Shown: positions 1 to 41,531 of the stretch, in pieces
Position numbering within the stretch: the stretch's first letter is position 1
How the letters are laid out: each line of letters opens with the position of its first letter
Origin: a virus
DNA: 41,531 nucleotides
Direction: 5' to 3' (one strand)
UHGV virus genome: UHGV-0397187
Notes under the pieces: model-generated
The model's database searches: none
The model's input: only the letters and a program-made list of their open reading frames with translations
Told to the model about the DNA's origin: nothing
Position numbers and translations under genes: made by a program

Positions 1-55
1 GGTATCTGATTATCTCCTGTGCCCACATCCCTTTTCGCCGCTTCTCCCAAACCAA
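1..55 (-). CDS. tail-fibre variable C-terminal segment, 5' fragment (no own start codon; continues left of the window)
   Basis: Minus-strand translation of 1-55 reads [20 protein letters not shown], identical to the residues that follow the crossover site in the tail fibre at 39614-40309; DNA is the reverse complement of about 39951-40005. Confidence 0.5.
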   Translation of the reverse strand, partial: MVWEKRRKGMWAQEIIRY

Positions 56-67
56 CGTTTATGAAAA
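42..67. other. hix/gix-like 26-bp invertase crossover site (copy at window start)
   Basis: ttctcccaaacc-aa-cgtttatgaaaa: left half-site identical to the sites at 39939-39964 and 41482-41507; matches the recalled Hin hixL pattern TTCTTGAAAACCAAGGTTTTTGATAA in the conserved half. Confidence 0.6.
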
Positions 68-121
68 TGCAGAAATAACGAGCAAATGGCGTCATTCCTG
101 CTTTTGTCAGGGTGATCTACC

Positions 122-414
122 ATGTTTATAGGCTATGTACGCGCATCAACAAATGACCAGGACACCGATTTACAACGCAATGCGTTGATCTGTGCAGGAT
201 ATGAGCTGATTTTTTGAGGGTAAATCATCAGCATGAGACTAATAATTTAGCGTCCAATTCTGGGCTTTTTGGTTGCACCCTCTCCGCCCAGAATTGCGCG
301 CCAATTGGCCCAGAAAAAAACGCGAAGTTACAAGTTCCTCGCCAGAAGGTGGCGATCATCTATGATGTTGGCATATCGACTTTGTATAAGAAGTTTCCGG
401 TCGGAGATAAATGA
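122..414 (+). pseudogene. pin: serine DNA invertase (Pin/Hin/Gin family) remnant with internal deletion
   Basis: 122-217 encodes MFIGYVRASTNDQDTDLQRNALICAGYELIF then a stop (invertase N-terminus with the catalytic-Ser motif); the 214-414 frame ends ...RQKVAIIYDVGISTLYKKFPV, resembling the invertase C-terminal HTH; the central catalytic domain is missing. Confidence 0.7.
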
Positions 415-574
415 AACCGTAGCACGTCGTATGCAAGAACGTGCCACGGCTGGCTGATGGACGTTCGATAGCGCGAGTTTGAATGAAAATCAGCCGGAGG
501 TGATTTTACATAATTGTTGCGGAATCATTCAATATAGGGATTGCTTATTTCTGCCTGGATTGGTCTGAAATAGT

Positions 575-829
575 CCCGAAATTTTCTCTAAAAAACTCGA
601 AAAAAATGGTAACTAATTGAATGCATTAATATGCAATGGTACGTGTTTGGGATTAAAAGATGAGCGTAATTTTGCTTAACAAATTAATTTAAAAAGGGTT
701 TCTTGTTTGTTGACGAAAACAGGAATCGTATTCGGTCTTTTTTTAATTGTATTTAAAATCAATCAGTTGTAAACGTCTCCCCGAAATTCCCCGAAATTTA
801 CTCGAATTTCTGTATTCCGGTCTTTTTTG
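575..829. promoter_or_regulatory. AT-rich repeat-rich region downstream of int 3' end; candidate attL with integrase arm-type sites
   Basis: Tandem ccccgaaatt x2 at 779-798, cccgaaatt at 575-583, tattcggtcttttttt at 729-745 repeated as tattccggtctttttt at 813-829; sits where lambda-type prophages carry attL. Confidence 0.3.
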
Positions 830-875
830 GTTATATCACAACCAAAATACATTTAACAATCCATTTACGTTAAAA

Positions 876-1952
876 TCAGAGCAGTAAGTACGTTTTTTCT
901 CTCTCATCAAGGTACATTTTTGTTGTCTTCTCCGATGTGTGGCCAAGTAGACGCTGAGCAAATTCTTCTCCACATGTTTCTTTGTACAATCGTCCAGCCA
1001 GACTTCTGATCTCGTGAAAAGTTGGTGGGTTTTCACTGAACTGGATACCTGTTAATTTTCTGGCTGCGACAAATTTTTTTGTCAGGCCATCCGGGTGAAT
1101 GCTGCCGTCAGGGCTGTTTTTTCTAATCCCGGCACTGATTAGATAATCTCCCCGGCTTACCAGGCGGCATCGTTCAACTACTGTACCAAGTCGTAAACCA
1201 GCGACAGGAAGGCTGAGTGACAGGGGGATAGCAATCATCATTCCTGTCTTAATTTGCCTGATGTGGAGACGATCATCATAAATCTCACTGAACCGCATAT
1301 TTGTTATGTCTTCGCGACGTTGTCCTGTTACAAGGGCTAAGTCCATAGCTAATGGGAACCATGTCGGAAGTTGATCTGCTGCCTCCCTGATGCAGTTGTA
1401 TGTCTTTAGTTTCAGCCGTTCTCTTGTAACTACTATTTTCGGTGCTCTTGTTGGCGTTACTGGATTTTGAGATATACGTCCTTCAACAATGGCCTCGCGG
1501 AACATATCAGATAACACAGAACGCATTGATCCTGCCATCGTGTTTTTCCCTCCTTCAATCCACAAATCAAGAAACTCGGCAATATGGCGAGTGGTTATTT
1601 CTGTCAGTAAAACTCCTCCTAATTTTTCTTTTATTGTCTCCAGTTGATTTACCCGAATTTTATAAGTATTTCTGGACACTTTTCTCCTTATAAGAATCGT
1701 TTTGTAACGTTCAATCCAGTCTGCCATAGTAAATGAGTCGAACCCTTTTAGTTTTTCAATTAAGGTAGCAGGAGAGTAGTTTTTGTATATATAATGATTT
1801 GCTTCAATTGCCTGCGCTACTGCATCTCTTCTTGAAATTTTACCTAGTGTAAATTCTTCTTTCGTCAGAGGGTTGCGCCAGTAATATGCTTTGTCCCTCC
1901 TTCGATATGTTAAGTTTTTAGGCAAATTGGGATCGTATTTTTTCCGCTGCAT
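876..1952 (-). CDS. int: lambda-family tyrosine integrase
   Basis: 358-aa ORF; N-terminus [28 protein letters not shown]...EFTLGK parallels lambda Int MGRRRSHERRDLPPNLYIRNNGYYCYRDPRTGKEFGLG; C-terminal [15 protein letters not shown]...LLGH motif also conserved. Confidence 0.9.
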
Positions 1953-2205
1953 GTTTTAACTTCTCCAGTAACGGACTGTCTCTCCCTTGTCGCCCATTAG
2001 GCTGATGGTGTGTTATATCGGTATCAACCTTATTTGGGTTGATATAGAAAGCTTCCGGAACCACCCTGTAACTCCTCCCGTGTAGTTCAGGTGCAGGATA
2101 AATGTTTCCATTCCTTGCCCATCGTCTCAGCGTTGATATTGATGGTGGGTTATCCGGATATCTGAGTTTTCCCCACGTTTTGAGTGTCACAAGATTCATT
2201 GCCAT
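1918..2205 (-). CDS. xis: excisionase (Xis-like), overlapping int start
   Basis: 95-aa ORF immediately upstream of and overlapping int, as in lambda xis-int; small basic protein; position-based call. Confidence 0.5.
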   Translation of the reverse strand: MAMNLVTLKTWGKLRYPDNPPSISTLRRWARNGNIYPAPELHGRSYRVVPEAFYINPNKVDTDITHHQPNGRQGRDSPLLEKLKHAAEKIRSQFA

Positions 2206-2305
2206 ACCTCTTACGATATGACCGCCAGTAAATATACAGAATACTGGCGGGTGTGGTTGATTTTTAATAATCAGCTATGAAGTTCTAATTTGTATATAAT
2301 GCAAC

Positions 2306-2494
2306 TCACGAGGACAGAAGTTTCTCGCAATTAAAATTTATCAGCTTTACTTTCTGCTCTCTGGACACGCCTGCTTCTTTTTTCCCTGAGAGCATTTTTT
2401 CGCATTCTGATTTCGTTAATTTAGATTTTGAATATCTTGTCCAGTTAGTAGGAGTGCCACCTTCTTTTTCAATAGTGGCAGTTATTTTATACAT
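2306..2494 (-). CDS. hypothetical small protein (position of Rac ydaC); start uncertain
   Basis: ORF 2306-2566 on minus strand; a later Met is chosen to limit overlap with the downstream lar-like gene. Confidence 0.35.
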   Translation of the reverse strand: MYKITATIEKEGGTPTNWTRYSKSKLTKSECEKMLSGKKEAGVSREQKVKLINFNCEKLLSS

Positions 2495-2693
2495 GAACAC
2501 CTCCATTATTATTTCCAGTAGTTCGTTTATTCCATCTTTCGAGTGCTTCTTTTTCACTTCCACCATAGCCAGTTCGGGATTCGCATCCGTTGCATTTTGC
2601 CCGGTAATATCCTGAAATTGCTTTCACCGTAACAGATGGACAACCACAAAACGGACATGGTTTAACATCGTCATATCTCATAATTTTTGTCAT
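2487..2693 (-). CDS. lar: Lar/RalR-family restriction-alleviation protein
   Basis: MTKIMRYDDVKPCPFCGCPSVTVKA...KCNGCESRTGY: small protein with paired Cys motifs typical of the Lar family; sits directly upstream of recT as in Rac. Confidence 0.7.
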   Translation of the reverse strand: MTKIMRYDDVKPCPFCGCPSVTVKAISGYYRAKCNGCESRTGYGGSEKEALERWNKRTTGNNNGGVHV

Positions 2694-2737
2694 AAAAACT
2701 GTCTCACGTTGGCGGTGCATTACACCGCCAGGCTGAA

Positions 2738-3547
2738 TTATTCTTCTGAATTATCGATTACACTGTATTCCCCGGTTAATACAGAGGAGTCTGCCGGATC
2801 GATTGTCAGTGGTTCCTTTTCATCCATTGATACTGCACGCTGGATTTCAATTGAGACAGGCAGGTATTTAAACAGGCGACGAATAGCCGTTTTTTTTGCC
2901 ATTTCTTCCCAGTGAGTTACCCATGGCCCGTTATTACCAGCCTTACTCTGGCTGCGCACCAGTTCAATCTGTTTGCGCGTCATAACTTCAAACTGAGTCC
3001 CTCCGTCTTTCAGTCTTGCGACAGCATAGACGTGGGTCACTGGTGCATCTTCGTTTTCTCCCGGGCGGTGTATTAACTTTTCATCAAGGCCAAATTCAAA
3101 ACTAAACTCGTCACCTTCACGGACAACACGGGCTGACAGGCTGGCGATTTGACCAGAACGGCGAGCCAGATCAATCATGCCGCGATAACCAATGATTAGC
3201 TGAACGTTCTTTTTACCGCTCTTTTCGTTTTTATTACCAAAAGGCAGTAAATATGCGTGGCCGAGGGCGCTACCTGGCTCAAGGCCGAGCTGTGAACACT
3301 GAACGATCGCACTGACAAAACTCATGGTGTCACAGTTTCCTAGCGCCGGAACCTTACGAATTTCTGTGGTGGCGATACGTATCATTCGTTCAGCCGTCAT
3401 ATGGCGTGGGAGAGCTGCTGCCAGTTGCTCTTTCATTGATGGCTGATTAATAAAGCTGATCACGTCGTTATTTTTTACTGCTGCTGGTGCACGGTTTCCC
3501 TGGGTTTTTTGCAGATCGGCTTTTGCGATAGGTGGTTGCTTAGTCAT
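2738..3547 (-). CDS. recT: RecT single-strand annealing recombinase
   Basis: From [32 protein letters not shown]... the translation matches my recollection of E. coli Rac RecT essentially throughout. Confidence 0.95.
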
Positions 3548-6173
3548 TTGCATACTCCTTAGCCCAGCGGGGCAGTGATAACGTTTTAATAGCTGGCCAT
3601 TCATCGGTATTCAGGCAGTCAGCCAGGGTCCTCAGATTGCGGTGATATTCCTGCTGGCCTGCCAGTTTTGCTTCTTCGCCCATCATGAAAATCTCAACCG
3701 GGTAACGTCCGCATTCAACAGTTGTGCTGGCAACCAGAAAAACGAAAGTTGGCAGCACGCCAAACTGTGCTTCATAACCGTCACTGTAGAATGCATCCTG
3801 AACGTGATAGCGGTAGTCGTAATAAGCCGTTTTGAATCGTTGAATATCCGCTGTGGTTTTCACGTCCATGATCCAGTGAAATTCAGGAATAATTTTGTCC
3901 GGACGGCACCGACACAAAATTCCTGTTTCCGGATCTTCCCAGTAAATTGATGATTCAGCGTGTCCGGCGCTTTCAACAAGCCATTGCCCCAGCGGCAAAG
4001 CCATAACGCTTTGATACATGAGTTCAATTTTCCGGCCTTCTTCCGCAGTGATAACCGTTTTTCCTGTGCTTGCGCATTCCATCAGAAACGCTTTCTCTTC
4101 TTCTTTTCCGGCGTTTGTACGGCGGTTAAATTCAGGTGCTACGATAAAGCGGTTACTGAATTCTTCCGGTTCAAGTACCCGGCAGTGGAAAGCGGTTCCT
4201 AAATCGAGCGTTTTTGTCTTTGTAGTGTCCACGGGGGCATTTTTACGCCACAAATACAGTGCCGGAGTATCAGCAATGTCATCGAGCTGAGACTTACTGA
4301 CACCGGGACCCGCGTGGTAATTCTCATTCGAAATTCCGTAATAAATACCTGGCTCTATGTCTTCTACGATTACGGGATCTGCGACTTCGCCAGTTTCATC
4401 ACTGCAATCGCGATGCGGATCGCTGCCAGCATTCTCATTGTGCGGATGTTCAGCGCCTTCCATTTCCTCCGGATCTTTTTCCTTAGCTTCAACCTGATTC
4501 TCTTCACCGAATGTTTCCTGGTATGTTGCGTCGCCCATCACCGCACCACAGTCAGGGCAGTTATCCCCGCCAGTCTGACCGCAGGCATTGCAGACTATTT
4601 CCGGTTCCTGTTGCACTACTGGCTCAGGTTGTTTCGCATCCGGGCTGATTTTTTCCGTTTCTGGCTGGTTCTGGTACACAGAATCGCGAGTCTGGATCCC
4701 CTTAACCCATTTCGGATCGTTCGGGTCGCTAATCCCTTCAACAAATTCTCCGCGAGAGGCAGCCAGTAATTTGTCTGCATCGACAGGATTTTTGGGCGGA
4801 ATGTTTTTCCGGGCTTCATGGAGTTCTGCCCGCAGTTTCTGATATTTCGCATCAACAGAATTTACCTGTGACTGAGCATCCAGCGACTGCGTGTCCTGAT
4901 GATGTTCAGTTGCATCCGGTTCCACTGTTTCAGCCGTTGCCTGTTCATCTGCCATTGCGCAAGATGGTTGCAGTTTTTCTTCATCATCCTGTTTTTCTTC
5001 TTCTGTTACACGCTGCGGCATCGGGGCAGAGGAACGACCGCAGGCAATATCCACGATTTCTGGATCAGGGTTGGCATGATCAGTTTCAGTCAGTACTTTG
5101 TTCAGATATTCAGTGACGTGTGCGGGGATAACCTCGATCCCAATTGGTGCTTCTTTTACGGACGCAACCACGATGGCGCGGGAATAATCCAGCCCACCAG
5201 GCATGGTGATGAATTTGTCGCGGAAAACAGAAAAGGGTGGTTTATTTTCAGCGATAATTTCCTCGACACGTTTAGCGTGTGCCGGATGAAGGTTATAAAT
5301 GTCCACGTCCATTGAACGAGCCAGTACGCCAGTGGCTACGTCGCGCGCCAGTGACGTCAGATCGTGAACGAAACCTTCGCCGCGATCGGTGAGGTTCCCG
5401 CCGCCAGCATTAGCGCCGGAAGCCGTGCGCGTGATGCGTGAAACACGATTTCCTTTCATCCACTCTTTTGTCAGCAGACCGCGATCGGTGTAGTCTGCGT
5501 CCAGGTATGCTTCGAAAAAAGCAGTCATCAGCCCCAGGCTTGAATTGCCTGGATTAGGGAAAACTCTGTCAGTATCACGCACCAGTTTGTGGAGATCGCG
5601 AATTTCCAGCGGGTCGAGCAGGCTGGTTTTGTGGGAAACAGCCAGGGCAGTAACAGCTGGTAGTTCTTCAGCTCGTGCAATGTGTAATGCCTGTAGTTCG
5701 TCGCGTGAAACGTGCGTTACCGGTTTTTCGCTGCCGTGTTGAGCAAGCCAGCGAATGGGCAGCTCCTGACCGGAAATCGGGAGTAGCATATTCTCCTCAA
5801 TCTCCGTCATGTCTTCGCCATTAACATTGGTATTGTCAGTGCTGGCTGGTTTGTCCTGCGCAGAGGATGAGGGCGCGATAAATACCATTGTGATGCCATC
5901 TTCCCCGCCTTTTTCGTAACGGTTGCAGAATTCCGTATCAAATACGCCTTCTGGTGGAAGGTCATCAACAACGGGCAAATTGACGCGAACAGGTTTTTTA
6001 AAGTCATCTTCATCGTAGCCAGCATCGTCAATCGCAACAGCACCACGGGAGATGGCAATGGATAATTTTTTCGCTTCAGCCCAGTAGAAACCGCCTTTAA
6101 TACCGAGACGTTTTCTTACTTTGTCATTTTTTGCTTCGTAATACAGTGGGTAAACTTGTTTATCGGTGCTCAT
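3540..6173 (-). CDS. recE: RecE exonuclease VIII
   Basis: 877-aa ORF; long stretches ([45 protein letters not shown]..., C-terminal ...[14 protein letters not shown]) match Rac RecE as recalled; N-terminal ~100 aa differ. Confidence 0.95.
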
Positions 6174-6243
6174 TGTTTTTTAACCTCAACTCAGATTAAA
6201 ATTAATGCGAGTGATGAATAAATGTCCCTGGTTCTTCACTCAG

Positions 6244-6273
6244 GCCTGCACAGTGTGCAGGCTTTCTTTTTTC
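6244..6273 (+). terminator. plus-strand hairpin plus T-run (intrinsic-terminator-like) in the racC-recE intergenic region
   Basis: gcctgcaca-g-tgtgcaggc followed by tttcttttttc; all surrounding genes are on the minus strand. Confidence 0.3.
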
Positions 6274-6300
6274 AGATTTCACCTTTTAATTTCATTGCAA

Positions 6301-6546
6301 TCAGAGTTGCCAGAAATTCGGCTTTTTTTCTGCGGGCAGATTCTTTCCTATGTGCACCAGACACATTTTTTTAACACCATCGTTAAGTGTTTTAACGTTG
6401 CCTGATGGACCGTCGATATCAACCACAGTGAATGGGGTTTCTTTATTTTCTGTCTTAATCACGTAGCCAATACGCTTTCCTTCCAGGGTAACTTCGTGAA
6501 CAATGTCATCAGTAGTAACAACAGTGGCTTCATAACTGGTAATCAT
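6301..6546 (-). CDS. racC: RacC-like protein
   Basis: MITSYEATVVTTDDIVHEV...; strong RBS (aaggagaaaaac) before this Met; position after recE as in Rac. Confidence 0.7.
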   Translation of the reverse strand: MITSYEATVVTTDDIVHEVTLEGKRIGYVIKTENKETPFTVVDIDGPSGNVKTLNDGVKKMCLVHIGKNLPAEKKPNFWQL

Positions 6547-6620
6547 GTTTTTCTCCTTAATTAAGGTTGAGCGAATCCCTGCCATTGCTGGCATAAATTC
6601 AGTTTCGGATAGTCAGTTAA

Positions 6621-6790
6621 TTAAAGTTCGTGTGCCATCTGGTCTTTTTCGGCACAGATTTCACTACAATATTTTTTCATTTCCGTCGTTGGTATAACTC
6701 CACGCATGAAATGAAGTGGTCTTGTAATGATTTTGCTTTCTTCAATTTCTTTATTGCAAAGGTGATAAGCACATTTTATTTTCTTAGTCA
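6621..6790 (-). CDS. ydaE: YdaE-like small zinc-binding protein (missed by the ORF track, under 60 aa)
   Basis: Minus-strand translation [56 protein letters not shown]; four Cys; resembles Rac YdaE. Confidence 0.7.
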
Positions 6791-7012
6791 TTACCATGAC
6801 TCCGCCTTTACAGGTAAACCATCACGACCGAGGAAGACTCTAATCATGCAGTCAGAAATGCATGTTTTTGTAGTCAGGCTACGAATATAAAGTTTTCGCT
6901 TTTTAATATTGTTTGCCGAGGCGATATATGTCCGACCTTCATGAAGAACATAATCGCCAGGGGTCACACACTGACGTGGTATTTCATCAGTTCCGAAGTG
7001 ATGAGCAATCAT
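6791..7012 (-). CDS. kilR: Kil protein (KilR-like cell-division inhibitor)
   Basis: [46 protein letters not shown]...; matches Rac KilR as recalled; GGAG RBS precedes this internal Met. Confidence 0.8.
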
Positions 7013-7407
7013 AATTATCTCCATTTTTACAAATGAACTTTGTTGATGCGGTGCCTGGTGCCTCCAGGTGACGTTAACCAGTTAACAATTAACGCCGGAT
7101 AATCCACCCATAACACTGATGCTTTTAACTGTGCCGCGTGCGCTTAGCCGCATTCACCGCATCACAAAATTCACTTTAAAAAGGGGCAGCAGGGCAGCCA
7201 CGGAGTAGAACTGATGCCGCCAAAGACTACACATAGCAATGTCGTTATTTACAACCGGAGGCGCACTCCCACCATTTAAATTTAACAGACAAGACCGACT
7301 CTTTATGAATACCGGAAATGCGCCTTCGTGTTGTGCGCCTGTCTTTTTACCACTTCAGGCTCGGTGGTATACTGGAGTTCTCACACAACCAGTAATAAGG
7401 TATTCCG

Positions 7408-7602
7408 ATGGATAATAAAGACAAAGCCTGGCTACTTGCTTTAGCTTTCAGCATCAGATCGCAGCGAGAAACAACTCATCAAGAATTTTTCTCGGAAATC
7501 GAGAATGCTGAGAATGAGTTTTTGTCACTACTCAATGAACGTGATGCTAAAAAAAGCGCCGATTCACTTAAGGCTTGGGCGAAACTAGGCTCTTCAAAAT
7601 AA
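7408..7602 (+). CDS. hypothetical protein (position of sieB in Rac, but much shorter)
   Basis: 64-aa ORF preceded by an extended -10 (tggtatact) at about 7360-7370. Confidence 0.4.
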   Translation: MDNKDKAWLLALAFSIRSQRETTHQEFFSEIENAENEFLSLLNERDAKKSADSLKAWAKLGSSK

Positions 7603-7786
7603 TTGCTTCTGTAGCGGCATGAACAACTGTTTTTGCCGCCTCTTCAACTTCCTTGTCTGGACGACCAGCCTTTACTTTTTCTGCAATGACCTCCAGCACA
7701 GTTGGAAGAACCTTGCTAATAAGCATGGCTGCCACATCTTTGCTGCACAATTGACCGTTAATAACAACCAGATCTTCACCAACCAT
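7568..7786 (-). CDS. hypothetical protein, convergent with the previous gene
   Basis: ORF 7568-7843; the internal Met at 7786 is preceded by an aagggga RBS. Confidence 0.4.
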   Translation of the reverse strand: MVGEDLVVINGQLCSKDVAAMLISKVLPTVLEVIAEKVKAGRPDKEVEEAAKTVVHAATEAIILKSLVSPKP

Positions 7787-7963
7787 CTTTTTTCCCCTTA
7801 ACGCCGGGTGGCGGAACGTTTTATCTACTGCGCTTTGTATCAATCAACAACTGCCGTCATGTTCGTATGCCTCAGGCTGGCTACTTAGCCCTGTTCAGTG
7901 GCTGGATAACTCGAGGTATTGTCCTGCCGTTCTCTGGTGGGGCGTTGTTTGGATATGCTTATT

Positions 7964-8001
7964 AAACACAATGTGTTTTCTTGTGTCAACACGAAATGTG
8001 T
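7964..8001. promoter_or_regulatory. operator-like palindromes downstream of repressor gene (OL-like)
   Basis: aacaca-a-tgtgtt at 7964-7976 and aacacg-aaa-tgtgtt at 7987-8001; same AACACA/TGTGTT half-sites as the site at 8564-8578. Confidence 0.5.
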
Positions 8002-8086
8002 TTTGTGGTGGGTGTCATATGATGATGGTACAAAAAAAGCCCGCTGATAGCGGGCTGATTGGCATATTACTGTGATAGCAAGATCA

Positions 8087-8506
8087 TTACTCCGGTGGGG
8101 GATTATCTTTAAGCCTGCCTCTCAAATATTTTTCTACATACTCATCGATTTCTTTTAGCCGGACTTCAAATAGCTCAATCATTCGTTGTTGTTCTGAGCC
8201 CGGTAGCTGGTTAAACAACTCAAGAAGTTTTCGTTGGGATTCATTTAACCACAATTCAGAAGATTCCTGTTCTCCAAAGAGGAGCTCAGGTGGAGATATG
8301 CCAAGAGCCTTTCCCAATACGACAGCGTCATGCACTCCAACATTTCTGCTGCCCGCCTCATAGTTACCTATACGCGATTGCGTCCATCCGCAGATTTCAG
8401 CAAGTTTTCCTTGAGATAAACCAAGCTTCTGCCTGCGCTCTTTAAGACGCATTGCAATTTTGTCATTGAGCCTACTAGCGGCAATTTTTTCGTTTTCTTT
8501 TTCCAT
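8087..8506 (-). CDS. prophage repressor, HTH (XRE-family, RacR/CI-like)
   Basis: RQKLGLSQGKLAEICGWTQSRIGNYEAGSRNVG is a classic HTH; divergent from a Cro-like gene across a 96-bp operator region. Confidence 0.8.
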   Translation of the reverse strand: MEKENEKIAASRLNDKIAMRLKERRQKLGLSQGKLAEICGWTQSRIGNYEAGSRNVGVHDAVVLGKALGISPPELLFGEQESSELWLNESQRKLLELFNQLPGSEQQRMIELFEVRLKEIDEYVEKYLRGRLKDNPPPE

Positions 8507-8517
8507 TGCATCCTTGT

Positions 8518-8578
8518 ATCACGAATCGTGATTTACATAAAACACAAAACAGCTTGACCATATAACACAAGATGTGTT
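8518..8578. promoter_or_regulatory. divergent promoter/operator region (OR-like) between repressor and cro-like gene
   Basis: Palindrome atcacga-a-tcgtgat at 8518-8532; palindrome aacaca-aga-tgtgtt at 8564-8578 lying between a ttgacc -35-like and taaaat -10-like element. Confidence 0.55.
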
Positions 8579-8602
8579 TAAAATTGTCATCGGAGGTTTT
8601 CA

Positions 8603-8845
8603 ATGAACAAAATTTCAACATATCGAAAACAGCTTGGGCTGTCTCAAAGACAACTCGCTGTTCAGTTAGGGTGGATACAAAGCCGACTGGCAAATTACGA
8701 AGCAAATTTTCGTACCCCTGGACTAGAGGAGTGCAGAAAAATTGTTTCTACCCTTAATCGGCTTGGCGCTCATTGTGGACTTGACGATGTATTCCCCCCA
8801 GACGGTAAGCATAGCGAAAACAGCATAGGAGCGGTTGATTCATGA
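8603..8845 (+). CDS. Cro/YdaS-like HTH regulator
   Basis: RKQLGLSQRQLAVQLGWIQSRLANYEAN: HTH paralogous to the repressor HTH; first gene of the rightward operon. Confidence 0.75.
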   Translation: MNKISTYRKQLGLSQRQLAVQLGWIQSRLANYEANFRTPGLEECRKIVSTLNRLGAHCGLDDVFPPDGKHSENSIGAVDS

Positions 8846-9264
8846 AAATCAGGCATGAGCACATCGAATCAGTGTTGTTAGCCCTGGCAGCCGAAAAAGG
8901 GCAGGCGTGGGTCGCTAACGCAATTACTGAAGAATATCTGCGCCAGGGGGGCGGCGAATTGCCCCTGGTACCAGGCAAGGACTGGAACAATCAGCAGAAT
9001 ATCTATCATCGTTGGTTGAAAGGTGAAACGAATGCGCAAAGGGAAAAAATTCAGAAACTGATCCCAGCAATTCTGGCAATCCTTCCGCGCGAGCTGCGTC
9101 ACCGACTCTGCATCTTCGATACCCTGGAACGCCGTGCATTACTGGCGGCGCAGGAAGCGTTGAGTACGGCAATTGATGCGCATGATGATGCAGTCCAGGC
9201 CGTTTACCGGAAAGCACATTTCAGCGGTGGTGGGTCGCCCGGCGATTCTGTCGTAGTGCATTGA
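8842..9264 (+). CDS. YdaT/CII-like regulatory protein
   Basis: 140-aa ORF directly after the cro-like gene, same size and position as Rac ydaT; family assignment by position and recollection only. Confidence 0.45.
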   Translation: MKIRHEHIESVLLALAAEKGQAWVANAITEEYLRQGGGELPLVPGKDWNNQQNIYHRWLKGETNAQREKIQKLIPAILAILPRELRHRLCIFDTLERRALLAAQEALSTAIDAHDDAVQAVYRKAHFSGGGSPGDSVVVH

Positions 9265-9309
9265 TTGAAATTAATCGTGCCGGATTGTTTTGTTCGGTAT
9301 CAGTTAAAT

Positions 9310-9727
9310 GTAACGCTGTGAGCGTTACAAGGTGAAAACAAATGGCTTCAAACTGGATAAAGCTCGAGGTTATTACGCCGGATAAGCCGGAAATATTCAG
9401 GCTTGCTGAGATTCTGAATATTGATCCAGATGCCGCATTAGGGAAGGTTATTCGCTTCTGGGCATGGGCGGATCAACAAATGATAGACGGTAATGCAGAT
9501 TGTAACGCTCGCGGCGTTACAAAAAGTGCAATAGATCGCATCACTTTTATGGCTGGTTTTGCTGATGCGTTAATTCAGGTTGGATGGCTGGTCGAAAATG
9601 ACGGTGGGCTTTCTCTACCTAACTTTGAACGTCATAACGGGAAAAGCTCTAAAAAACGGGCGGTTACAAACGAGCGAGTTACAAAAATACGCGAACTGAA
9701 ACGAAAAGGTAACGCTGGCAGCGTTAC
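9310..9727. repeat. iteron-like palindromes (candidate origin / initiator binding sites)
   Basis: gtaacgc-N5-gcgttac at 9310-9328, 9502-9520 and 9709-9727, plus half-sites (ggttacaaa, agttacaaa) near 9662-9690. Confidence 0.5.
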
Positions 9728-10136
9728 ACAAATGGATCAAAAAGCGTTACCAGAGGAAGAGGAAGAGGAAGAGGAAGATATAAATACTGATCTCCCCCTA
9801 AATCCCCCTCGCCAAAAACGAGCGTCTAAAAAATTTGAGCCGGAGGCTATTGAGCTGCCCGATTGGTTGCCGGAAACACTCTGGCATGAGTGGGTCCGGT
9901 TCAGGCAGGCATTGCGAAAACCGATTCGAACGGAGCAGGGCGCTAACGGGGCGATACGGGAGCTGGAAAAATTCCGCCAGCAGGGTTTTACACCTGAGCA
10001 GGTGATTCGACACAGTATCGCCAATGAATACCAGGGCCTGTTCGCGCCGAAAGGTGTTCGGCCTGAGACGTTGCTCCGACAGGTTAACACCGTCTCGTTG
10101 CCGGACAGTGCGATCCCGCCAGGCTTCAGGGGGTAA
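9342..10136 (+). CDS. replication initiation protein (O-like / YdaU-like)
   Basis: 264-aa ORF upstream of a DnaC-like loader; contains the iteron-like palindromes and an acidic (EEEEEEEED) linker. Confidence 0.55.
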   Translation: MASNWIKLEVITPDKPEIFRLAEILNIDPDAALGKVIRFWAWADQQMIDGNADCNARGVTKSAIDRITFMAGFADALIQVGWLVENDGGLSLPNFERHNGKSSKKRAVTNERVTKIRELKRKGNAGSVTQMDQKALPEEEEEEEEDINTDLPLNPPRQKRASKKFEPEAIELPDWLPETLWHEWVRFRQALRKPIRTEQGANGAIRELEKFRQQGFTPEQVIRHSIANEYQGLFAPKGVRPETLLRQVNTVSLPDSAIPPGFRG

Positions 10137-10142
10137 CAGGCC

Positions 10143-10889
10143 ATGAAAAATATTGCGACAGGAGGCGTTCTGGAGCGTATCCGCAGACTGACCCCACCAC
10201 ATGTAACCGCCCCATTCAGAACGGTTGCGGAGTGGCGCGAGTGGCAACTTGCTGAAGGCCAGAAACGTTGCGAGGAGATCAACCGCCTGAATCGTCAGTT
10301 GCGGGTGGAAAAAATCCTGAATCGCTCTGGCATCCAGCCGTTGCACCGCAAATGTTCGTTTGCGAATTACCAGGTGCAGAACGACGGTCAGCGATACGCG
10401 TTGAGTCAGGCGAAATCCATCGCTGATGAACTGATGACCGGGTGTACAAATTTTGCGTTCAGCGGAAAGCCTGGTACCGGGAAGAACCACTTAGCGGCAG
10501 CTATCGGGAATCGCCTGCTGAAAGACGGTCAGACAGTGATTGTGGTTACCGTGGCTGATGTTATGAGTGCCCTCCACGCCAGCTATGACGACGGGCAGTC
10601 AGGCGAGAAATTTTTGCGGGAACTGTGCGAAGTGGATCTGCTGGTTCTTGATGAAATTGGCATTCAGCGCGAGACGAAAAACGAGCAGGTGGTACTGCAC
10701 CAGATTATTGATCGACGGACAGCGTCGATGCGTAGCGTGGGTATGCTGACAAACCTGAACTATGAGGCCATGAAAACATTGCTCGGCGAGCGGATTATGG
10801 ATCGCATGACCATGAACGGCGGACGCTGGGTGAATTTTAACTGGGAGAGCTGGCGTCCGAATGTCGTCCAGCCAGGAATTGCGAAGTAA
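10143..10889 (+). CDS. DnaC-like helicase loader (IstB-type AAA+ ATPase)
   Basis: Walker [18 protein letters not shown] and Walker B LLVLDEIG motifs. Confidence 0.85.
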
Positions 10890-10911
10890 TTTTTACCGGG
10901 AGAAAAATTTA

Positions 10912-11673
10912 ATGGAGACTGTTTTTGATGCACTGAAAGCAATGGGAAAAGCCACATCCATAGAACTTGCTGCGCGACTTGATATCAGTCGTGAAGAAGT
11001 GCTGAACGAACTATGGGAACTGAAAAAAGCTGGTTTCGTTGATAAAAGCGCGTACACCTGGCGTGTGGCTGATAACAACGTTCAGCAGGAACAGCCAGCG
11101 CCAGAAGAACAGCCGGAAGAAACCACCACGGCGACAGTAGCGAAAATCTCAGAGTGCGATTTAACCGCGACGATTGAACAACGCGGACCACAAACGGCGG
11201 ATGAACTGGCTACGCTGTTCGGTACAACATCCCGCAAAGTGGCTTCAACGCTGGCAATGGCAATCAGCAAAGGTCGTCTGATTCGCGTAAATCAGGGCGG
11301 TAAATTTCGTTACTGCATACCGGGCGATAATTTACCAGCAGAGCCGAAAGCTGCATCGGTAGCGGAAACTGATGGTAAAGCCTTTCCTCAGCCTGCATGT
11401 GTTGCGTTACCAGTACAGGAGGCTGCAACACAGGAAGATATTAAAACAGAAACTGTGGCGGACATTGTGCAGTCGCTGCCATCGTTCACCGAAACGCGAG
11501 CGGATGACCTGATTTTACCATCGCTGCATATGGCAAACCGCGAACTGCGTCGGGCGAAAAGTCATGTCCAGAAGTGGGCGCGAGTCTGCGCCGCGCTGCG
11601 GGAGCTGAACAAGCACCGGGATATTGTTCGACAGATTACTGATTCTTCCCGCCGTGTTGTATCGGAAAAGTGA
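10912..11673 (+). CDS. winged-helix DNA-binding protein (DUF1627-like), start uncertain
   Basis: [45 protein letters not shown] is a winged-helix-like N-terminus; the ORF could start at 10861 instead. Confidence 0.5.
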
Positions 11674-11688
11674 TTGCCGGAGGCACTT

Positions 11689-12111
11689 ATGGCAAAAGTA
11701 TTTACACAAGAAGAGCGGGAAAAAATTAAAGGGCAGGTTGTTGAGCTAGTACGCCGGAGTGGGCGCGAGACGTTACGGCAACTGGAAGCCAAGACAGGTG
11801 CGACAAGATATCTGATGAGCGTTCTCGCCAGAGAGCTTGTTGCCAGTGGCGATGTATACAACTCTGGTTACGGGTTATTTCCGTCTGAACAGGCCCGTAA
11901 GGACTGGCAAAACGCCCGCAAAAAACTATCCAGGGCAAAGGTGAAAAAAACGGTTGTGGTTGATCCTGACCTTATCTGGTCATTACCAGACGGAGAAATA
12001 CGCCGCTACGACAGGCGTCTGAACATAATCTGTCGCGAGTGCCGGAAGAGCGAAGCTATGCAGCGTGTACTGGCTTTCTATCAGGGTAATTTTCAGGAGG
12101 CGGTACTGTGA
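11689..12111 (+). CDS. hypothetical protein
   Basis: ORF with ATG at 11689 preceded by ccggagg RBS (the track start at 11674 is a TTG). Confidence 0.5.
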   Translation: MAKVFTQEEREKIKGQVVELVRRSGRETLRQLEAKTGATRYLMSVLARELVASGDVYNSGYGLFPSEQARKDWQNARKKLSRAKVKKTVVVDPDLIWSLPDGEIRRYDRRLNIICRECRKSEAMQRVLAFYQGNFQEAVL

Positions 12112-12168
12112 GTGAAATTAGCTATCAGGCTTCAATTGCCGCTGGCATTCGCATCAAAGGAGAGGAGC

Positions 12169-12525
12169 ATGGAAATAAAACCAGAAGATGAGTTAAGTAA
12201 TATTGTTTTATTTCCGGTAAAAGAGGATGACCCACGTAATCAGGTTAATTTTCTTTATGAGCCATCGGAAAGACCATATTGTCATCACGCCTCTGTCCGG
12301 GTTGACGAAAAAGAGCGTCAGGTCCGCTGTAAAATCTGCGGTGCAGTTGTGGAGCCATTTGACCGGATGCTCTCTGTGGCGAAAAGAGAAACCAGACTGG
12401 CAGATGATGTAAGGCTATTGCGTCAGGAGGAACAGGAAAGGCGAAAAAATATAGAAAAGCTAATTCAGATTGAGCGTAACGCGAAAGCGCGGATAAGCAG
12501 GGTGACAAAATCAAGAACTGAATAA
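12169..12525 (+). CDS. hypothetical protein with zinc-ribbon-like Cys/His motif
   Basis: ATG at 12169 after aaaggagaggag RBS (the track start at 12112 is a GTG); CHH...CKIC motif. Confidence 0.5.
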   Translation: MEIKPEDELSNIVLFPVKEDDPRNQVNFLYEPSERPYCHHASVRVDEKERQVRCKICGAVVEPFDRMLSVAKRETRLADDVRLLRQEEQERRKNIEKLIQIERNAKARISRVTKSRTE

Positions 12526-12618
12526 TTTAAATTTAGCACTGTTAAAAATTTAATCCTTAACCGGAGGGATTTCTGCACCATCAGAACATCAGGAGTCCGC
12601 CCGAAAGGGCGGTAAGAA

Positions 12619-12837: not shown

Positions 12838-12838
12838 T

Positions 12839-13270: not shown

Positions 13271-13273
13271 CCC

Positions 13274-13717: not shown

Positions 13718-13718
13718 T

Positions 13719-15102: not shown

Positions 15103-15171
15103 GAGACCCGGCGGGGGAGAAATCCCTCGCCACCTCTGATGTGTCAGGCATCCTCAACGCACCCGCACTTA

Positions 15172-15196
15172 ACCCGCTTCGGCGGGTTTTTTGTTG
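15172..15196 (+). terminator. intrinsic terminator after hok
   Basis: acccgc-ttcg-gcgggt followed by ttttttgtt. Confidence 0.75.
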
Positions 15197-19422: not shown

Positions 19423-19425
19423 TTA

Positions 19426-38937: not shown

Positions 38938-39614
38938 GCAAATACACCGAACTGATCACGAACTACCACGCCACCAAACCTAAATTTCTTGCACATGTTG
39001 ATCTGATGACCCGGCCGCTTATTGATGTTGCGGCTGCCACCAGAGGGCTGATTACTGCATTTGATATTGACTCTGCGGTTGGTGTGCAACTTGACATTCT
39101 TGGATTGTGGATCGGACGTAGCCGTGTTGTCAGCCAGCCTATCTCAGGTGTCTATTTCAGCTGGGATACCGACGGGCTTGGATATGATCAGGGTGTATGG
39201 CAGGGGCCATACGATCCTGATTCCGGATACATGTACCTCAGCGATGAAACTTATCGTGTCATCCTTAAAGCGAAGATTGCGATTAATAACTGGGATGGAC
39301 GGAATGATTCGCTTCCGGCAATTCTTGACGCGGCGACAGCAGGATCCGGACTGCGAATGCAGATAGTCGATAACCAGGACATGACGATATCGGTCTGGGT
39401 CTTTCCTGATACTGATATTTCAGATGTATCGCGTGAGTTAATTGCTGCAATTAAACAGGGATATCTCACAGTAAAAGCCGCCGGGGTTTGGGCGGGTGGC
39501 ATTGAAACACCTTCGGTGGAAACTCCATCGGAAGGTTCAAAATTTTTTGGTTTTGATATGGATAACGAATTCATCAGTGGTTTTGATGTAGGGGCATGGG
39601 GAGTATTACTCTGA
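38934..39614 (+). CDS. baseplate/tail protein (gpI-like)
   Basis: 226-aa ORF immediately upstream of the tail fibre gene. Confidence 0.55.
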
Positions 39615-40309
39615 TGGCGAAAAATGACTTTAAAGCGTTTGCAACTGATCGGAATGCCAATGTTATGTCGCAGGAGGAATGGGAAGCGTTGCCTGCGCTT
39701 TTATCCGGATTTACAGCAGGGAAAGCATCCAGTGCGCAAGTCAATAAGGTTATTCGGCAGGCCAGCTTTATTGCTGCAGCTCTGGCCCAGTTTGTAAGTG
39801 ACAAAACGCAACGGGATGTGCTTGATAATGGTGATCTGCCCGGTTTTGTTGAATTGCTGGGATCGGGGTTTGCTGTTGAATACCTGAGCCGCAAGAATCC
39901 GTTTGGCGATATCAAATCGGATGGCACGGTGAAAACGGCTCTCGAAAACCTTGGTTTGGGAGAAGCGGCGAAAAGGGATGTGGGCACAGGAGATAATCAG
40001 ATACCGGATATGGGAGCATTCGCTTCTGGTTCGGGATGGTTCAGGCTACCAGGTGGATATATTGTTCAGTTTGGCACTTTTTCAGGAAACACGACCCGCT
40101 TTATCAGTGGACACTTCCCTATACCATTCCCTAATCAGCCGATGGTTTCAGTCAGTGTTATGTCTGATGCCGTTCAGTCAGACCCGTCGAATCCTGCCCC
40201 GCAGGTTTTGTCTGTAAATTTTGAACATATCAGTAATTCAGCGTGGCGTGTGGCAACCAGTGATATCTCACAGCAATACAGATTCAGTTATATTTCGATA
40301 GGACGGTAG
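39614..40309 (+). CDS. tail fibre protein with invertible C-terminal half
   Basis: ATG at 39614 overlaps the previous stop; the hix-like site lies inside the coding region at 39939-39964, splitting a constant N-terminus from a variable C-terminus. Confidence 0.8.
39939..39964. other. hix/gix-like 26-bp crossover site (left, inside tail fibre gene)
   Basis: ctctcgaaaacc-tt-ggtttgggagaa, exact reverse complement of 41482-41507. Confidence 0.8.
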
Positions 40310-40311
40310 AA

Positions 40312-40752
40312 ATGCAGAAATATATTTTCAGTGCCGATAAAAATGCGTTTTTCCCTGTGGAGCTTAAAATCGCTTATCAGGAATCCGGCGAATGGCCCGA
40401 TGATGGAATCGAAATTGACGACACTGTTGCCGCCGAATTTATGAAGGAAGCACCAGAAGGAAAATACAGAGGTGTCATCGACGGAATGCCTGCATGGATT
40501 GATATTCCACCGCCAACTCATGAGGAACAAATTGCCGCAGCCGAACTGGAAAAGCAGCAATTGATTAATCAGGTCAACGAATACATAAACAGTAAGCAAT
40601 GGCCTGGTAAAGCGGCGATTGGTCGCCTGAAAGGTGAGGAACTGGCGCAATATAATTTGTGGCTGGATTATCTGGACGCACTGGAGCTGGTCGATACTTC
40701 CGGTGCGCCAGATATTGAATGGCCTACGCCTCCGGTAACTCAGGCCAGCTAA
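40312..40752 (+). CDS. tfa: tail fibre assembly protein (Tfa)
   Basis: 146-aa ORF right after the fibre; C-terminal VDTSGAPDIEWP motif shared with Tfa'. Confidence 0.8.
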   Translation: MQKYIFSADKNAFFPVELKIAYQESGEWPDDGIEIDDTVAAEFMKEAPEGKYRGVIDGMPAWIDIPPPTHEEQIAAAELEKQQLINQVNEYINSKQWPGKAAIGRLKGEELAQYNLWLDYLDALELVDTSGAPDIEWPTPPVTQAS

Positions 40753-41119
40753 TCTCAGGAGCCGTCGAAGTGTCGACGGCTTTTACTTCTTTTTTGTAGT
40801 ACATCCAGGCGGATAGTTTTTCTTTATCTGTACTGCTAATATCACCAAGCATTAATTCCACTCGCCAGTCAGCTGTGACATTATCGGCATGAGAAAGTAA
40901 CTGCATTCGCTGATTTTCCGCACGTGCGACATAATCAATCACCGGGGATTTCAGTACCGGTAAACCATTTTCATCTGACGTAATTAATTTACCCCCTTCC
41001 TGCTGTCCGGCAATTAATTCATTGTATAAGTCTGTACTTATCTCAACAATGTCAGCAGGCATGTCGCTGTTTATACCATCGAAGAAAAAACCATTAGTCG
41101 ATTTTGAGAAATAAATCAT
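40724..41119 (-). CDS. alternative tail fibre assembly protein (Tfa')
   Basis: MIYFSKSTNGFFFDG...; C-terminus ...VDTSTAPEISWP parallels Tfa; convergent with Tfa and overlapping its 3' end. Confidence 0.75.
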   Translation of the reverse strand: MIYFSKSTNGFFFDGINSDMPADIVEISTDLYNELIAGQQEGGKLITSDENGLPVLKSPVIDYVARAENQRMQLLSHADNVTADWRVELMLGDISSTDKEKLSAWMYYKKEVKAVDTSTAPEISWPELPEA

Positions 41120-41127
41120 AGATATAC

Positions 41128-41531
41128 CTATACACCGATTGCTACCCAAAAACAGGACCTTTCATATTTGACAATTTCTCCCTGAGATATACCGCCAACA
41201 ATTATATAGAACTGTGATTTGCTGATATCAGAACAGTTCGCTATGCCCATTGCAGATATACCCGCCACCGACGTTGTATGTGGTACAGCCAACAGCGCAA
41301 GTGAACGATTTGGGAATGTTACCGGGTAAGTCACCGTATAGTTTGATGCTCCACTGACAATACCCCACTGAATAATCAGACCCGAAGGTAGTTTTTGAAA
41401 ACCCGTTGATGAAAGTGAACTGGCAAACGCCGCCATATCCGGAATTTGGTTTTGCCCGTTACCTACATTCCGTTTTGCCGCTTCTCCCAAACCAAGGTTT
41501 TCGAGAGCCGTTTTCACCGTGCCATCCGATT
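41128..41531 (-). CDS. alternative tail fibre C-terminal segment (no own start; expressed only after inversion)
   Basis: Minus-strand translation ...[41 protein letters not shown]... shares the constant-region junction with the fibre at 39614-40309, then diverges. Confidence 0.75.
41482..41507. other. hix/gix-like 26-bp crossover site (right)
   Basis: ttctcccaaacc-aa-ggttttcgagag; near-palindromic half-sites around a 2-bp core. Confidence 0.8.

What the first reader, a model, noticed from the sequence alone, without database searches (positions are those of the whole stretch)
1..414. Third crossover site and an internally deleted invertase at the window start
Positions 1-55 (minus strand) encode the same post-crossover fibre residues as 39951-40005, next to a hix-like site (42-67) whose outer half-site has diverged. 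A pin-like gene follows that keeps its N-terminus (with the catalytic Ser motif) and C-terminal HTH but lacks the catalytic core. So the left flank of this prophage is the distal end of another fibre-inversion module with a dead invertase. The two ends do not join in frame, so this is more likely a tandem or adjacent prophage remnant than a circular permutation. If the downstream invertase is intact it could still act in trans on these sites, or promote deletion or inversion between the distant sites.
Basis: partly seen in the sequence, partly recalled or inferred. Interest (0 to 1): 0.6.

Follow-up and report, generated by a model that had tools for sequence, protein, structure and literature searches.

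The report
Phage fibre switch lacking its invertase
The "third site" and "deleted invertase" at the window start belong to the same tail-fibre DNA switch seen at the window end, because the window is one circular phage genome cut open inside that switch; the invertase was destroyed by the leftover end of a Mu-like jumping phage, yet the switch still seems to flip using an enzyme borrowed from the host.

Summary
Window 1-55 is the exact reverse complement of 39951-40005, a 26-bp hix/pix site lies at 42-67, and only Pin residues 1-31 and 159-184 are encoded.

The interpretation does not hold.
- Both window ends are exact 55-mers of internal sequence on the other strand (56-mers absent). That is the signature of a k=55 assembly graph broken at an invertible segment.
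- Independent assemblies of the same phage break at the crossover points, and the segment forms its own 1545-bp contig.
- Positions 414-876 are a true attP.
- So the window is one circular genome of about 41,440 bp with one inversion module. Site 42-67 is its invertase-proximal site. 41482-41507 is hixL read in the flipped state.

The "internally deleted" invertase is a composite.
- 39-332 is 97% identical to the right end of Mu-like transposable prophages: hixR, a gin stub that keeps the Fis enhancer, and an attR-like terminus ending CA at 332.
- This end is joined to codon 158 of the phage's own pinE.

All four junction types are inferred in the samples, so inversion probably continues through a host-borne Pin-type invertase. 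This is a new variant of a known system, of moderate interest.

The parts
1..55 (-). Redundant copy of the first 18 post-crossover codons of fibre variant Sv1. It is the same physical DNA as 39951-40005, shown in the flipped orientation next to hixR (a k=55 graph vertex).
   Evidence: The exact 55-mer is the rc of 39951-40005 and the 56-mer is absent. Logan unitig L009/L033 ends exactly at this crossover.
42..67 (.). hixR/pixR, the invertase-proximal 26-bp recombination site of the single inversion module (TTCTCCCAAACC AA CGTTTATGAAAA).
   Evidence: It is identical next to intact pinE in L001 and L002 and in the Mu-like prophage L012.
122..238 (+). gin/pin 5' stub of Mu-like origin. The ORF of 31 codons stops at 215-217. 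Homology continues to about 238 after a +1 frameshift in the T-run.
   Evidence: Near-identical to the Mu-like prophage ends of E2348/69 and CFS3292, and distinct from pinE alleles. tblastn covers aa 1-31. Alignment with Mu gin. Frames.
143..206 (.). Presumed recombinational enhancer. Two Fis-type 15-mers (143-157 and 192-206) lie 49 bp apart, with ATTTA/CAATG between them. The proximal core is centred about 95 bp from the hixR centre.
   Evidence: The two cores and one further 15-mer at 218-232 are the only G-N13-C 15-mers in 120-240. Both blocks are invariant between the window, the Mu-like stub, pinE and Mu gin. The geometry matches the Hin enhancer described in PMC3798978. Fis binding was not tested.
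239..332 (+). Right terminus (attR-like) of a Mu-like transposable phage, ending ...GAAGTTACA-3' at 332. Three TTCTGGGC repeats lie at 258-265 (+), 286-293 (-) and 308-315 (-).
   Evidence: 96-99% identical to prophage/host boundaries in 20 E. coli genomes at different loci, with identity stopping at 332. The same repeat occurs at the left end of the E2348/69 element. Motif clustering.
333..414 (+). 3' remnant of the phage's own pinE, from codon 158 to the stop (part of the HTH). 333-337 (AGTTC) would be the 5-bp target duplication.
   Evidence: 96% identity to PinE aa 159-184. The junction falls at pinE nt 474. Alignment.
415..875 (.). attP. The P arm is 415-718, the core about 719-746 (ACAGGAATCGTATTCGGTCTTTTTTTA) and the P' arm 747-875.
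   Evidence: The left arm equals the phage side of attR next to pphA (L002). The right arm equals the phage side of attL next to yebY (L003)..
876..1952 (-). Tyrosine integrase of the phage.
   Evidence: Pfam Phage_integrase.
39614..40309 (+). Tail fibre gene in the state shown. The constant part Sc runs to the crossover at 39951/52 and is fused to variable part Sv1.
   Evidence: (Gp53-like_C).
39939..39964 (.). hixL/pixL inside the fibre gene.
39953..41493 (.). Invertible segment: Sv1, the chaperone gene 40312-40752 (+), a second chaperone gene 40724-41119 (-) and Sv2 41128-41493 (-).
   Evidence: It forms a separate 1545-bp unitig covering 39951-41495 in two Logan runs.
41477..41531 (-). Redundant copy of the Sc end plus hixL (rc of 39915-39969). 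It shows the Sc-Sv2 junction of the flipped state. 41482-41507 is rc(hixL), not a separate third site.
   Evidence: Exact 55-mer with the 56-mer absent. The in-frame Sc+Sv2 fusion is shown.

Best explanation
The window is a complete, circularly permuted genome of about 41,440 bp from a temperate E. coli myovirus. Its tail genes are of the DUF3383-sheath / DUF2612-wedge type. It integrates between pphA and yebY. It was assembled with k=55 from DNA in which the tail-fibre segment existed in both orientations, so the contig was cut open inside its single Pin/Gin-type inversion module.

Site assignment:
- 42-67 is the invertase-proximal site (hixR) of the module.
- 39939-39964 is hixL.
- 41482-41507 is hixL again, read from the flipped state.

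Origin of the dead invertase (inferred):
- A Mu-like transposable phage, which naturally carries only a gin stub plus its attR terminus, once inserted into codon 158 of the phage's pinE.
- Recombination between the two directly repeated, homologous fibre modules, either homologous or hix x hix, then removed pinE's 5' part and the rest of the Mu-like genome.
- What remains is hixR - gin stub with enhancer - Mu-like attR - pinE 3' end.

Consequence: the phage encodes no invertase but keeps both sites and the Fis enhancer. Its segment is flipped in trans by a Pin-family invertase of another prophage in the host, switching between two in-frame fibre C-termini with their own chaperones.

Status of each step:
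- Shown: the sequence identities, the attP, the Mu-like end and the absence of an invertase.
- Inferred: the order of events, the presence of both orientations in the reads and the trans-acting enzyme.
For: Assembly signature
- Both window ends are exact 55-mers of internal sequence on the other strand, with 56-mers absent.
- Logan (k=31) contigs from two runs are 100% identical to window 37-11952 and 37-8797, and both stop at 37. That is where the two segment ends (c36 versus t41476) become identical, which implies two predecessors.
- The segment is a separate 1545-bp unitig covering exactly 39951-41495.
- In metagenome ERZ28601634 the integrated copy's scaffold ends, by arithmetic, at window 39969, the other 55-mer vertex. 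A second scaffold starts at 41495.

Circular genome
- 414-876 is an attP. Its arms equal attR (L002) and attL (L003).
- The Logan contigs cross it without a break.
- Closure gives 41,440 bp, and both the Sc+Sv1 and Sc+Sv2 fusions are in frame.

Mu-like end
- Window 39-332 is 97.3% identical to the right end of the E2348/69 Mu-like prophage, which carries MuA, MuB, Mor and gpT and splits eutC. It also matches the CFS3292 copy in mhpT. Identity ends at ...TTACA at 332.
- TTCTGGGC repeats are shared with the element's left end and are arranged two direct plus one inverted.
- pinE resumes at nt 474.

No invertase, but cis elements kept
- There is no other invertase and no MuA/MuB in the window.
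- Enhancer blocks are conserved as far as Mu gin.

Trans action is plausible
- PinQ, PinR and PinE all invert the e14 P segment, whose inverted repeat (TTGGTTTGGGAGAAGG) matches this one at 15 of 16 positions (PMC12529663).
- Pin/hix regions similar to this one occur in 2275 of 5426 complete E. coli genomes.
Against: - I could not see reads or the assembly graph. The presence of all four junctions rests on where contigs break.
- The fourth junction (Sv2-hixR-stub) is inferred only from the Logan breaks at 37.
- The window's own sample is unknown.
- The Sc end plus hixL (79 nt) is shared with Mu-like fibre genes, and the last 51 nt of the window are 100% identical to the CFS3292 Mu-like copy. 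The window end could therefore in principle lead into a Mu-like genome, as it does in contig L015.
- Tandem prophages at this att site are real in E. coli 12089.
- The reciprocal Mu-like left junction and the target duplication were never observed, so the insertion-then-deletion history is a reconstruction.
- Fis binding and enhancer function were not tested.
Confidence: 0.75

Rival explanations
1. Tandem or adjacent prophage. Positions 1 to about 745 are the right end of a separate upstream prophage with its own fibre module and dead invertase. The window's main prophage is integrated beside it at the same att site.
For: E. coli 12089 has exactly such a tandem pair at yebY/pphA, with pinE-att-int contiguous. 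A hybrid att between tandem copies looks like attP.
Against: Both window ends fall exactly 55 nt from mismatches with internal sequence, which a genomic slice would not do. The window is one genome length. The Logan contigs cross the att core without the branch to yebY that a tandem array would force. The segment is a single unitig with both ends branching. No complete E. coli genome has the stub/attR/pinE junction.
Confidence: 0.1
2. A whole Mu-like prophage still sits inside pinE on the real molecule. The two window ends then belong to two different modules, one from the phage and one Mu-like. They may have been rearranged by an inversion between hix sites of the two elements, and the assembly collapsed the shared sequence.
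For: Contig L015 (GCA_029470985.1) joins the same Sc-Sv1-chaperone module, through a segment, to Mu-like tail genes in reverse orientation. The window's last 51 nt equal the rc of a Mu-like Sc end plus hixL. Positions 39-332 are Mu-like.
Against: A composite of about 77 kb could not be packaged, yet the sequence is found in attP form without attL. The invertible segment is one clean 1545-bp unitig, 100% identical to the window and bounded at both crossovers, which would require the two modules to carry identical segments. There are no MuA/MuB genes or other Mu-like DNA in the 41.5-kb contig.
Confidence: 0.08
3. Chimeric misassembly. The first ~330 bp come from a Mu-like prophage of another genome in a mixed sample and were joined wrongly to the phage contig through shared hix/fibre sequence.
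For: The fibre and hix sequences are shared among many E. coli prophages. The contig ends lie in repeats.
Against: The foreign/own junction at 332/333 is not in a repeat. It is reproduced at 100% identity in two independent Logan assemblies made with a different k and a different assembler.
Confidence: 0.03

Closest known systems
e14 P-segment / Pin system of E. coli K-12 (Din family with Gin, Cin and Hin)
   Same: The 26-bp sites have the same inner half-site. The e14 inverted repeat TTGGTTTGGGAGAAGG matches at 15 of 16 positions (PMC12529663). The crossover lies inside a tail-fibre gene. Two alternative C-termini are each followed by a Caudo_TAP chaperone. The invertase gene position is just outside the segment. 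The enhancer lies in the first ~100 nt of the invertase gene. The remaining pinE codons are 96% identical to PinE.
   Different: No functional invertase is encoded. Only codons 1-31 (from a Mu-like gin) and codons 158-184 (own pinE) remain, separated by a transposable-phage terminus. The carrier is a complete inducible myovirus integrated at pphA/yebY, not the e14 remnant at icd.
Phage Mu G segment, gin and attR
   Same: The order is fibre segment - gixR - gin 5' end with enhancer - right terminus ending CA. The terminal repeats are arranged as two direct plus one inverted, which from memory matches Mu R1, R2 and R3. The enhancer blocks are invariant with Mu gin.
   Different: The donor Mu-like phages (E2348/69 and CFS3292 prophages) lack gin beyond about codon 38 and lack com/mom. 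The terminus follows about 95 bp after the stub. Here only the terminal ~290 bp of such an element remain, with no transposase.
Trans-inversion between prophages (PinQ/PinR acting on e14; Fin of Fels-2 acting on the Salmonella H segment)
   Same: An invertase encoded by one prophage flips a segment in another element (PMC12529663).
   Different: In those cases the target module also has its own invertase. Here dependence on a foreign invertase would be obligatory.

Membership tests
Din-family (Gin/Cin/Pin/Hin) Fis-dependent DNA inversion module | Two 26-bp recombination sites in inverted orientation with a shared half-site and a 2-bp core | tested here: met
   hixL lies at 39939-39964 and hixR at 42-67 after circular closure. 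The inner 14 nt are identical, and chance expects 0.45 matches.
Din-family (Gin/Cin/Pin/Hin) Fis-dependent DNA inversion module | Adjacent gene for a small serine invertase with a complete catalytic domain and a C-terminal HTH | tested here: not met
   Only aa 1-31 and 159-184 are detectable, in different frames. There is no other hit in 41.5 kb.
Din-family (Gin/Cin/Pin/Hin) Fis-dependent DNA inversion module | Recombinational enhancer of about 65 bp with a Fis site at each end, about 100 bp from one site, inside the 5' end of the invertase gene | tested here: inconclusive
   Fis-type cores lie at 143-157 and 192-206, with the proximal core centred 95 bp from the hixR centre. They are invariant with pinE and Mu gin. 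The geometry matches PMC3798978.
Din-family (Gin/Cin/Pin/Hin) Fis-dependent DNA inversion module | The segment actually occurs in both orientations | tested here: inconclusive
   Three junction types are read directly in the window and the fourth is inferred from contig breaks at 37. Reads were not available.
Din-family (Gin/Cin/Pin/Hin) Fis-dependent DNA inversion module | Inversion exchanges in-frame alternative fibre C-termini with their cognate chaperones | tested here: met
   Sc+Sv1 (231 aa) and Sc+Sv2 are both open. Each variable part (Gp53-like_C) is followed by a Caudo_TAP gene.
Right end (attR) of a Mu-like transposable phage | The same sequence forms the prophage/host boundary at unrelated chromosomal sites, with identity ending at one nucleotide | tested here: met
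   E2348/69 (in eutC) and CFS3292 (in mhpT), plus 20 genomes covering at least 80% of the query. Identity ends at window 332.
Right end (attR) of a Mu-like transposable phage | The element encodes MuA/MuB-type transposition proteins | tested here: met
   This holds for the donor element in E2348/69, which is annotated with Mu transposase, an AAA ATPase, Mor and gpT. The genes are absent from the window itself, so the window holds only a remnant.
Right end (attR) of a Mu-like transposable phage | Terminal CA-3' and repeated transposase-binding motifs shared by both ends | tested here: met
   The end is ...GTTACA at 327-332. TTCTGGGC occurs three times in 258-315 and three times at the left end of the E2348/69 element.
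Right end (attR) of a Mu-like transposable phage | 5-bp target-site duplication flanking the insertion | not testable with these tools
   The left junction is absent from the window and from every collection searched.
   Only attP is present. The contig ends are 55-mer redundancies of the same module. There is a single segment unitig.

The most novel reading that the evidence does not exclude
A lineage of Mu-like phages, and now this unrelated myovirus that inherited their end, have given up the invertase gene. They keep exactly the cis elements needed for inversion: both hix sites and the Fis enhancer, which sits in a gin stub truncated within about 30 bp beyond the distal Fis core (reading frame closed 10 bp beyond it). 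They would then rely obligatorily on the communal pool of Pin-type invertases carried by other E. coli prophages. The same shared sites would mediate site-specific recombination between co-resident prophages. That recombination would have fused the two modules here and may also produce inter-prophage inversions of the kind suggested by contig L015.
Probability: 0.3. Interest if true: 0.55.

Novelty: new variant of a known kind. Interest (0 to 1): 0.35.

Why it matters
For the scan: inverted 55-nt matches at both ends of a contig mark an invertible segment assembled from a mixed population. They should not be read as extra sites, tandem elements or genuine terminal repeats.

For phage biology:
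- This is a concrete case of one temperate phage (Mu-like) transposing into another and being trimmed back through their shared fibre cassettes.
- The result is a viable phage whose host-range switch depends on an invertase it does not encode.
- If the dependence is real, host range of such phages would be set partly by the prophage content of the previous host.
- hix sites shared among Mu-like, lambdoid and DUF3383-type phages would be routes for exchanging fibre cassettes.

Tried and rejected
- Simple internal deletion of pin. Rejected: the filler between the two fragments is foreign. It matches Mu-like prophage termini at other loci.
- Decay of the outer half-site at 42-67. Rejected: the same 26-mer sits next to intact pinE genes.
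- The stub/attR/pinE junction (32-mer) was searched in the GTDB representative genomes, IMG/VR and JGI metagenomes, with 0 hits each. No complete E. coli genome covers it. It was also absent from ten further related loci.
- Exact-protein look-ups of the 31-aa and 66-aa ORFs found nothing on record.
- A look-up with the DUF2612 protein was too unspecific to recover the source scaffold (17,815 blocks). The scaffold end at 39969 therefore rests on arithmetic.
- A search of papers for the two run accessions found nothing, so the type of sample (virome or culture) is unknown.
- The related GenBank record vB_EcoM-611R5 turned out to be a prophage region with host flanks and its own truncated invertase. 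It was not informative for closure.

Full report
**1. The observation**

The first 60 bases are 98% complementary to 39946-40005. The exact match is 1-55, with the first mismatch at position 56. The half-site TTCTCCCAAACCAA occurs three times, at 42, 39951 (-) and 41482, against 0.45 expected. tblastn with an intact PinE (from E. coli 12089) finds only residues 1-31 at 122-214 and residues 159-184 at 334-411. These lie in different frames, and no other invertase is found in the window.

**2. What the window is**

Both ends of the window are exact 55-mers of internal sequence on the opposite strand:
- 1-55 = rc(39951-40005)
- 41477-41531 = rc(39915-39969)

In neither case does the 56-mer exist. 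Two independent coincidences of exactly 55 nt are the signature of a de Bruijn graph with k=55. The contig starts and stops at vertices where the graph branches.

The branch points are the crossover dinucleotides of the hix sites. The start shows rc(Sv1)-hixR-invertase stub. The end shows Sv2-rc(hixL)-rc(Sc). The interior shows Sc-hixL-Sv1. These are three of the four junctions expected when a segment exists in both orientations.

Independent assemblies agree:
- Logan (k=31) contigs from ERR8083394 and ERR8081429 are 100% identical to window 37-11952 and 37-8797. Both stop at 37, the first base at which the two segment ends become identical (c36 versus t41476). The 31-mer 37-67 therefore has two predecessors, which is the fourth junction.
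- The segment itself is a separate 1545-bp unitig covering exactly 39951-41495.
- In metagenome ERZ28601634 the same phage (99.99% identical) is integrated next to yebY. By coordinate arithmetic its 199.6-kb scaffold ends at window 39969. A second scaffold begins at 41495.

**3. attP**

Window 415-745 equals the phage side of attR next to pphA (L002). Window 714-876 equals the phage side of attL next to yebY (L003). The common core is about 719-746. The window therefore carries attP. The Logan contigs cross it without the branch that a chromosomal or tandem arrangement would create.

Overlapping 37-55 with 41477-41495 (19 nt, identical) closes a circle of 41,440 bp. In it, both Sc+Sv1 and Sc+Sv2 are open reading frames. 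The gene content is that of a complete temperate myovirus related to vB_EcoM-611R5 and SEN34: int, xis, recET, immunity, replication, terminase, portal, capsid, DUF3383 sheath, baseplate and fibres.

Hence 42-67 is the invertase-proximal site of the same module whose hixL is at 39939. The site at 41482-41507 is hixL seen in the flipped state. Physically there are two sites, not three.

**4. The "internally deleted" invertase**

Aligning with intact pinE loci shows about 117 bp (216-332) that do not align. That stretch, the preceding stub and hixR (window 39-332) are 97.3% identical to the right end of a prophage in E. coli E2348/69. It also matches one in CFS3292.

The E2348/69 element is a genuine Mu-like transposable phage. 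It carries Mu transposase, a MuB-like ATPase, Mor and the gpT head protein. It splits eutC into two pieces. The CFS3292 copy interrupts mhpT.

In all three cases identity stops after ...GAAGTTACA (window 332), and a different sequence follows.

The last ~95 bp contain three TTCTGGGC repeats, two in one orientation and one inverted. Only three further copies occur in the other 41 kb of the window. The same repeat occurs three times at the left end of the E2348/69 element. This parallels my recollection of Mu attR (R1 and R2 direct, R3 inverted).

After 332 the window continues with pinE from nt 474, which is codon 158.

The "gene" is therefore a composite of three parts:
- a Mu-like gin stub: 31 codons, with homology to about codon 38 after a frameshift;
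- a Mu-like attR terminus;
- the last 27 codons of the phage's own pinE.

The window contains no MuA/MuB. Its only other Mu-like DNA is the 79-nt Sc end plus hixL, which is common to many fibre genes, and a 166-nt mosaic patch.

**5. History (inferred)**

Transposition needs both ends, so a whole Mu-like genome must once have been inserted in pinE, in the same orientation as the phage. The phage's and the Mu-like element's fibre modules then lay as direct repeats sharing the Sc end, the hix sites and the 5' end of pin. Homologous recombination or hix x hix recombination between them would delete pinE's 5' part and the Mu-like genome. That leaves exactly the arrangement seen and restores a packageable size.

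The left junction and the 5-bp duplication (candidate AGTTC, 333-337) were not found anywhere.

**6. How it probably works now**

The cis elements are intact.
- hixR is identical to the site next to functional pinE genes.
- The stub retains two Fis-type cores (143-157 and 192-206) 49 bp apart, with ATTTA/CAATG between them. The proximal core is centred about 95 bp from the hixR centre. This matches the Hin enhancer as described: 65 bp, a Fis site at each end, about 100 bp from hix, and AT-rich ATTTA and TAATG contacts (PMC3798978).
- Both blocks are invariant between the window, the Mu-like stub, pinE and Mu gin.
- The stub's reading frame stops 10 bp beyond the distal core.

No invertase is encoded, so flipping must use a host-borne enzyme. 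PinQ, PinR and PinE all invert the e14 P segment, whose inverted repeat matches this one at 15 of 16 positions. PinE also acts on Mu G and on the Salmonella H segment (PMC12529663). Similar pin/hix regions occur in 2275 of 5426 complete E. coli genomes.

The contig-break evidence for all four junctions next to the dead stub suggests that inversion does occur. This is the least directly shown step.

**7. Rivals**

- Tandem prophages are real at this att site in E. coli 12089. They do not explain the 55-mer ends, the one-genome length or the unbroken attP in the Logan contigs.
- A retained Mu-like genome with an inter-module inversion is suggested by contig L015, where the same module runs into Mu-like tail genes in reverse. 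It is also suggested by the window's last 51 nt matching a Mu-like Sc end. It would require two identical segments and an unpackageable molecule of about 77 kb in attP form.
- A chimeric assembly is unlikely, because the 332/333 junction is reproduced in two other assemblies.

**8. Verdict**

The main interpretation (another module, a tandem remnant, an internal deletion) is not. What is there is a known kind of system (Pin/Gin-type fibre inversion) in an unusual state. It is invertase-less because of a Mu-like transposition scar, it has its enhancer and sites intact, and it is apparently served in trans. Interest is moderate.

Noticed in passing
window 714-748 (core about 719-746); Rfam hit at 645-748 (-): The phage attachment core ACAGGAATCGT(A/G)TTCGGTCT(T/C)TTTTTA lies between pphA and yebY. 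It looks like the terminator end of the SraC/RyeA-SdsR/RyeB sRNA locus. There is a sub-threshold Rfam match to SraC_RyeA (27.5 bits, gathering score 37). The phage seems to carry a replacement 3' end for the sRNA gene.
   Followed up: partly
L015 (GCA_029470985.1, DAODIQ010000011.1) 10001-20696; also L019: The same Sc-Sv1-chaperone module runs through an invertible segment straight into Mu-like tail genes (gp48, baseplate J, gp46, gp45, gp44, DNA circularisation protein, tape measure, sheath) on the opposite strand. This could be a real inversion between the hix sites of two different prophages, or an assembly chimera through the shared segment.
   Followed up: no
L012 (E2348/69, in eutC), L013 (CFS3292, in mhpT); 125 E. 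coli genomes: A family of Mu-like prophages has a fibre inversion module but no invertase. It retains only a gin stub of about 38 codons containing the enhancer, followed about 95 bp later by the right terminus. There is no com/mom.
   Followed up: partly
L001/L020/L021 (E. coli 12089, NZ_CP159875.1 3.365-3.454 Mb): Two different prophages sit in tandem at the yebY/pphA site: a DUF3383-type myovirus with pinE, and a lambdoid with J/Lom/Stf and nleG7. Each begins with the same frameshifted integrase-xis-ralR-recET block.
   Followed up: partly
window 39887-39965; L008, L012, L013: The last ~50 nt of the constant fibre part plus hixL are 95-99% identical between DUF3383-type and Mu-like fibre genes. 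The segment from about 39948 onward is 98.6% identical downstream of a lambdoid 742-aa Stf gene in L008. So the hix-bounded cassettes are shared across unrelated tail types.
   Followed up: partly
L006 (ON470588.1 vB_EcoM-611R5) 3444-3758 and 5487-7740: This GenBank 'complete phage genome' carries a truncated 104-aa DNA invertase and ends in host genes (pgpC, tadA). It appears to be a predicted prophage region rather than a virion genome.
   Followed up: no
window 392-448 (+): Weak Rfam match to CssrB (Shigella chromosomal sRNA B; 31.7 bits, gathering score 76), spanning the end of the pinE remnant and the start of the P arm. Probably not significant.
   Followed up: no
window 12959-14359: Three copies of a 36-nt direct repeat (CGTATCGCGCTGGCTTCGCTGGAAGCAGAACCAGTT, 67-100% identity) are spaced 405 and 960 bp apart. 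They lie in consecutive small ORFs of the early region (ead/Ea22-like area). These may be paralogous gene starts.
   Followed up: no
window 13547-13712: A 166-nt patch is 86% identical to the early region of the E2348/69 Mu-like prophage. It is the only other similarity to that element and is probably ordinary mosaicism.
   Followed up: no
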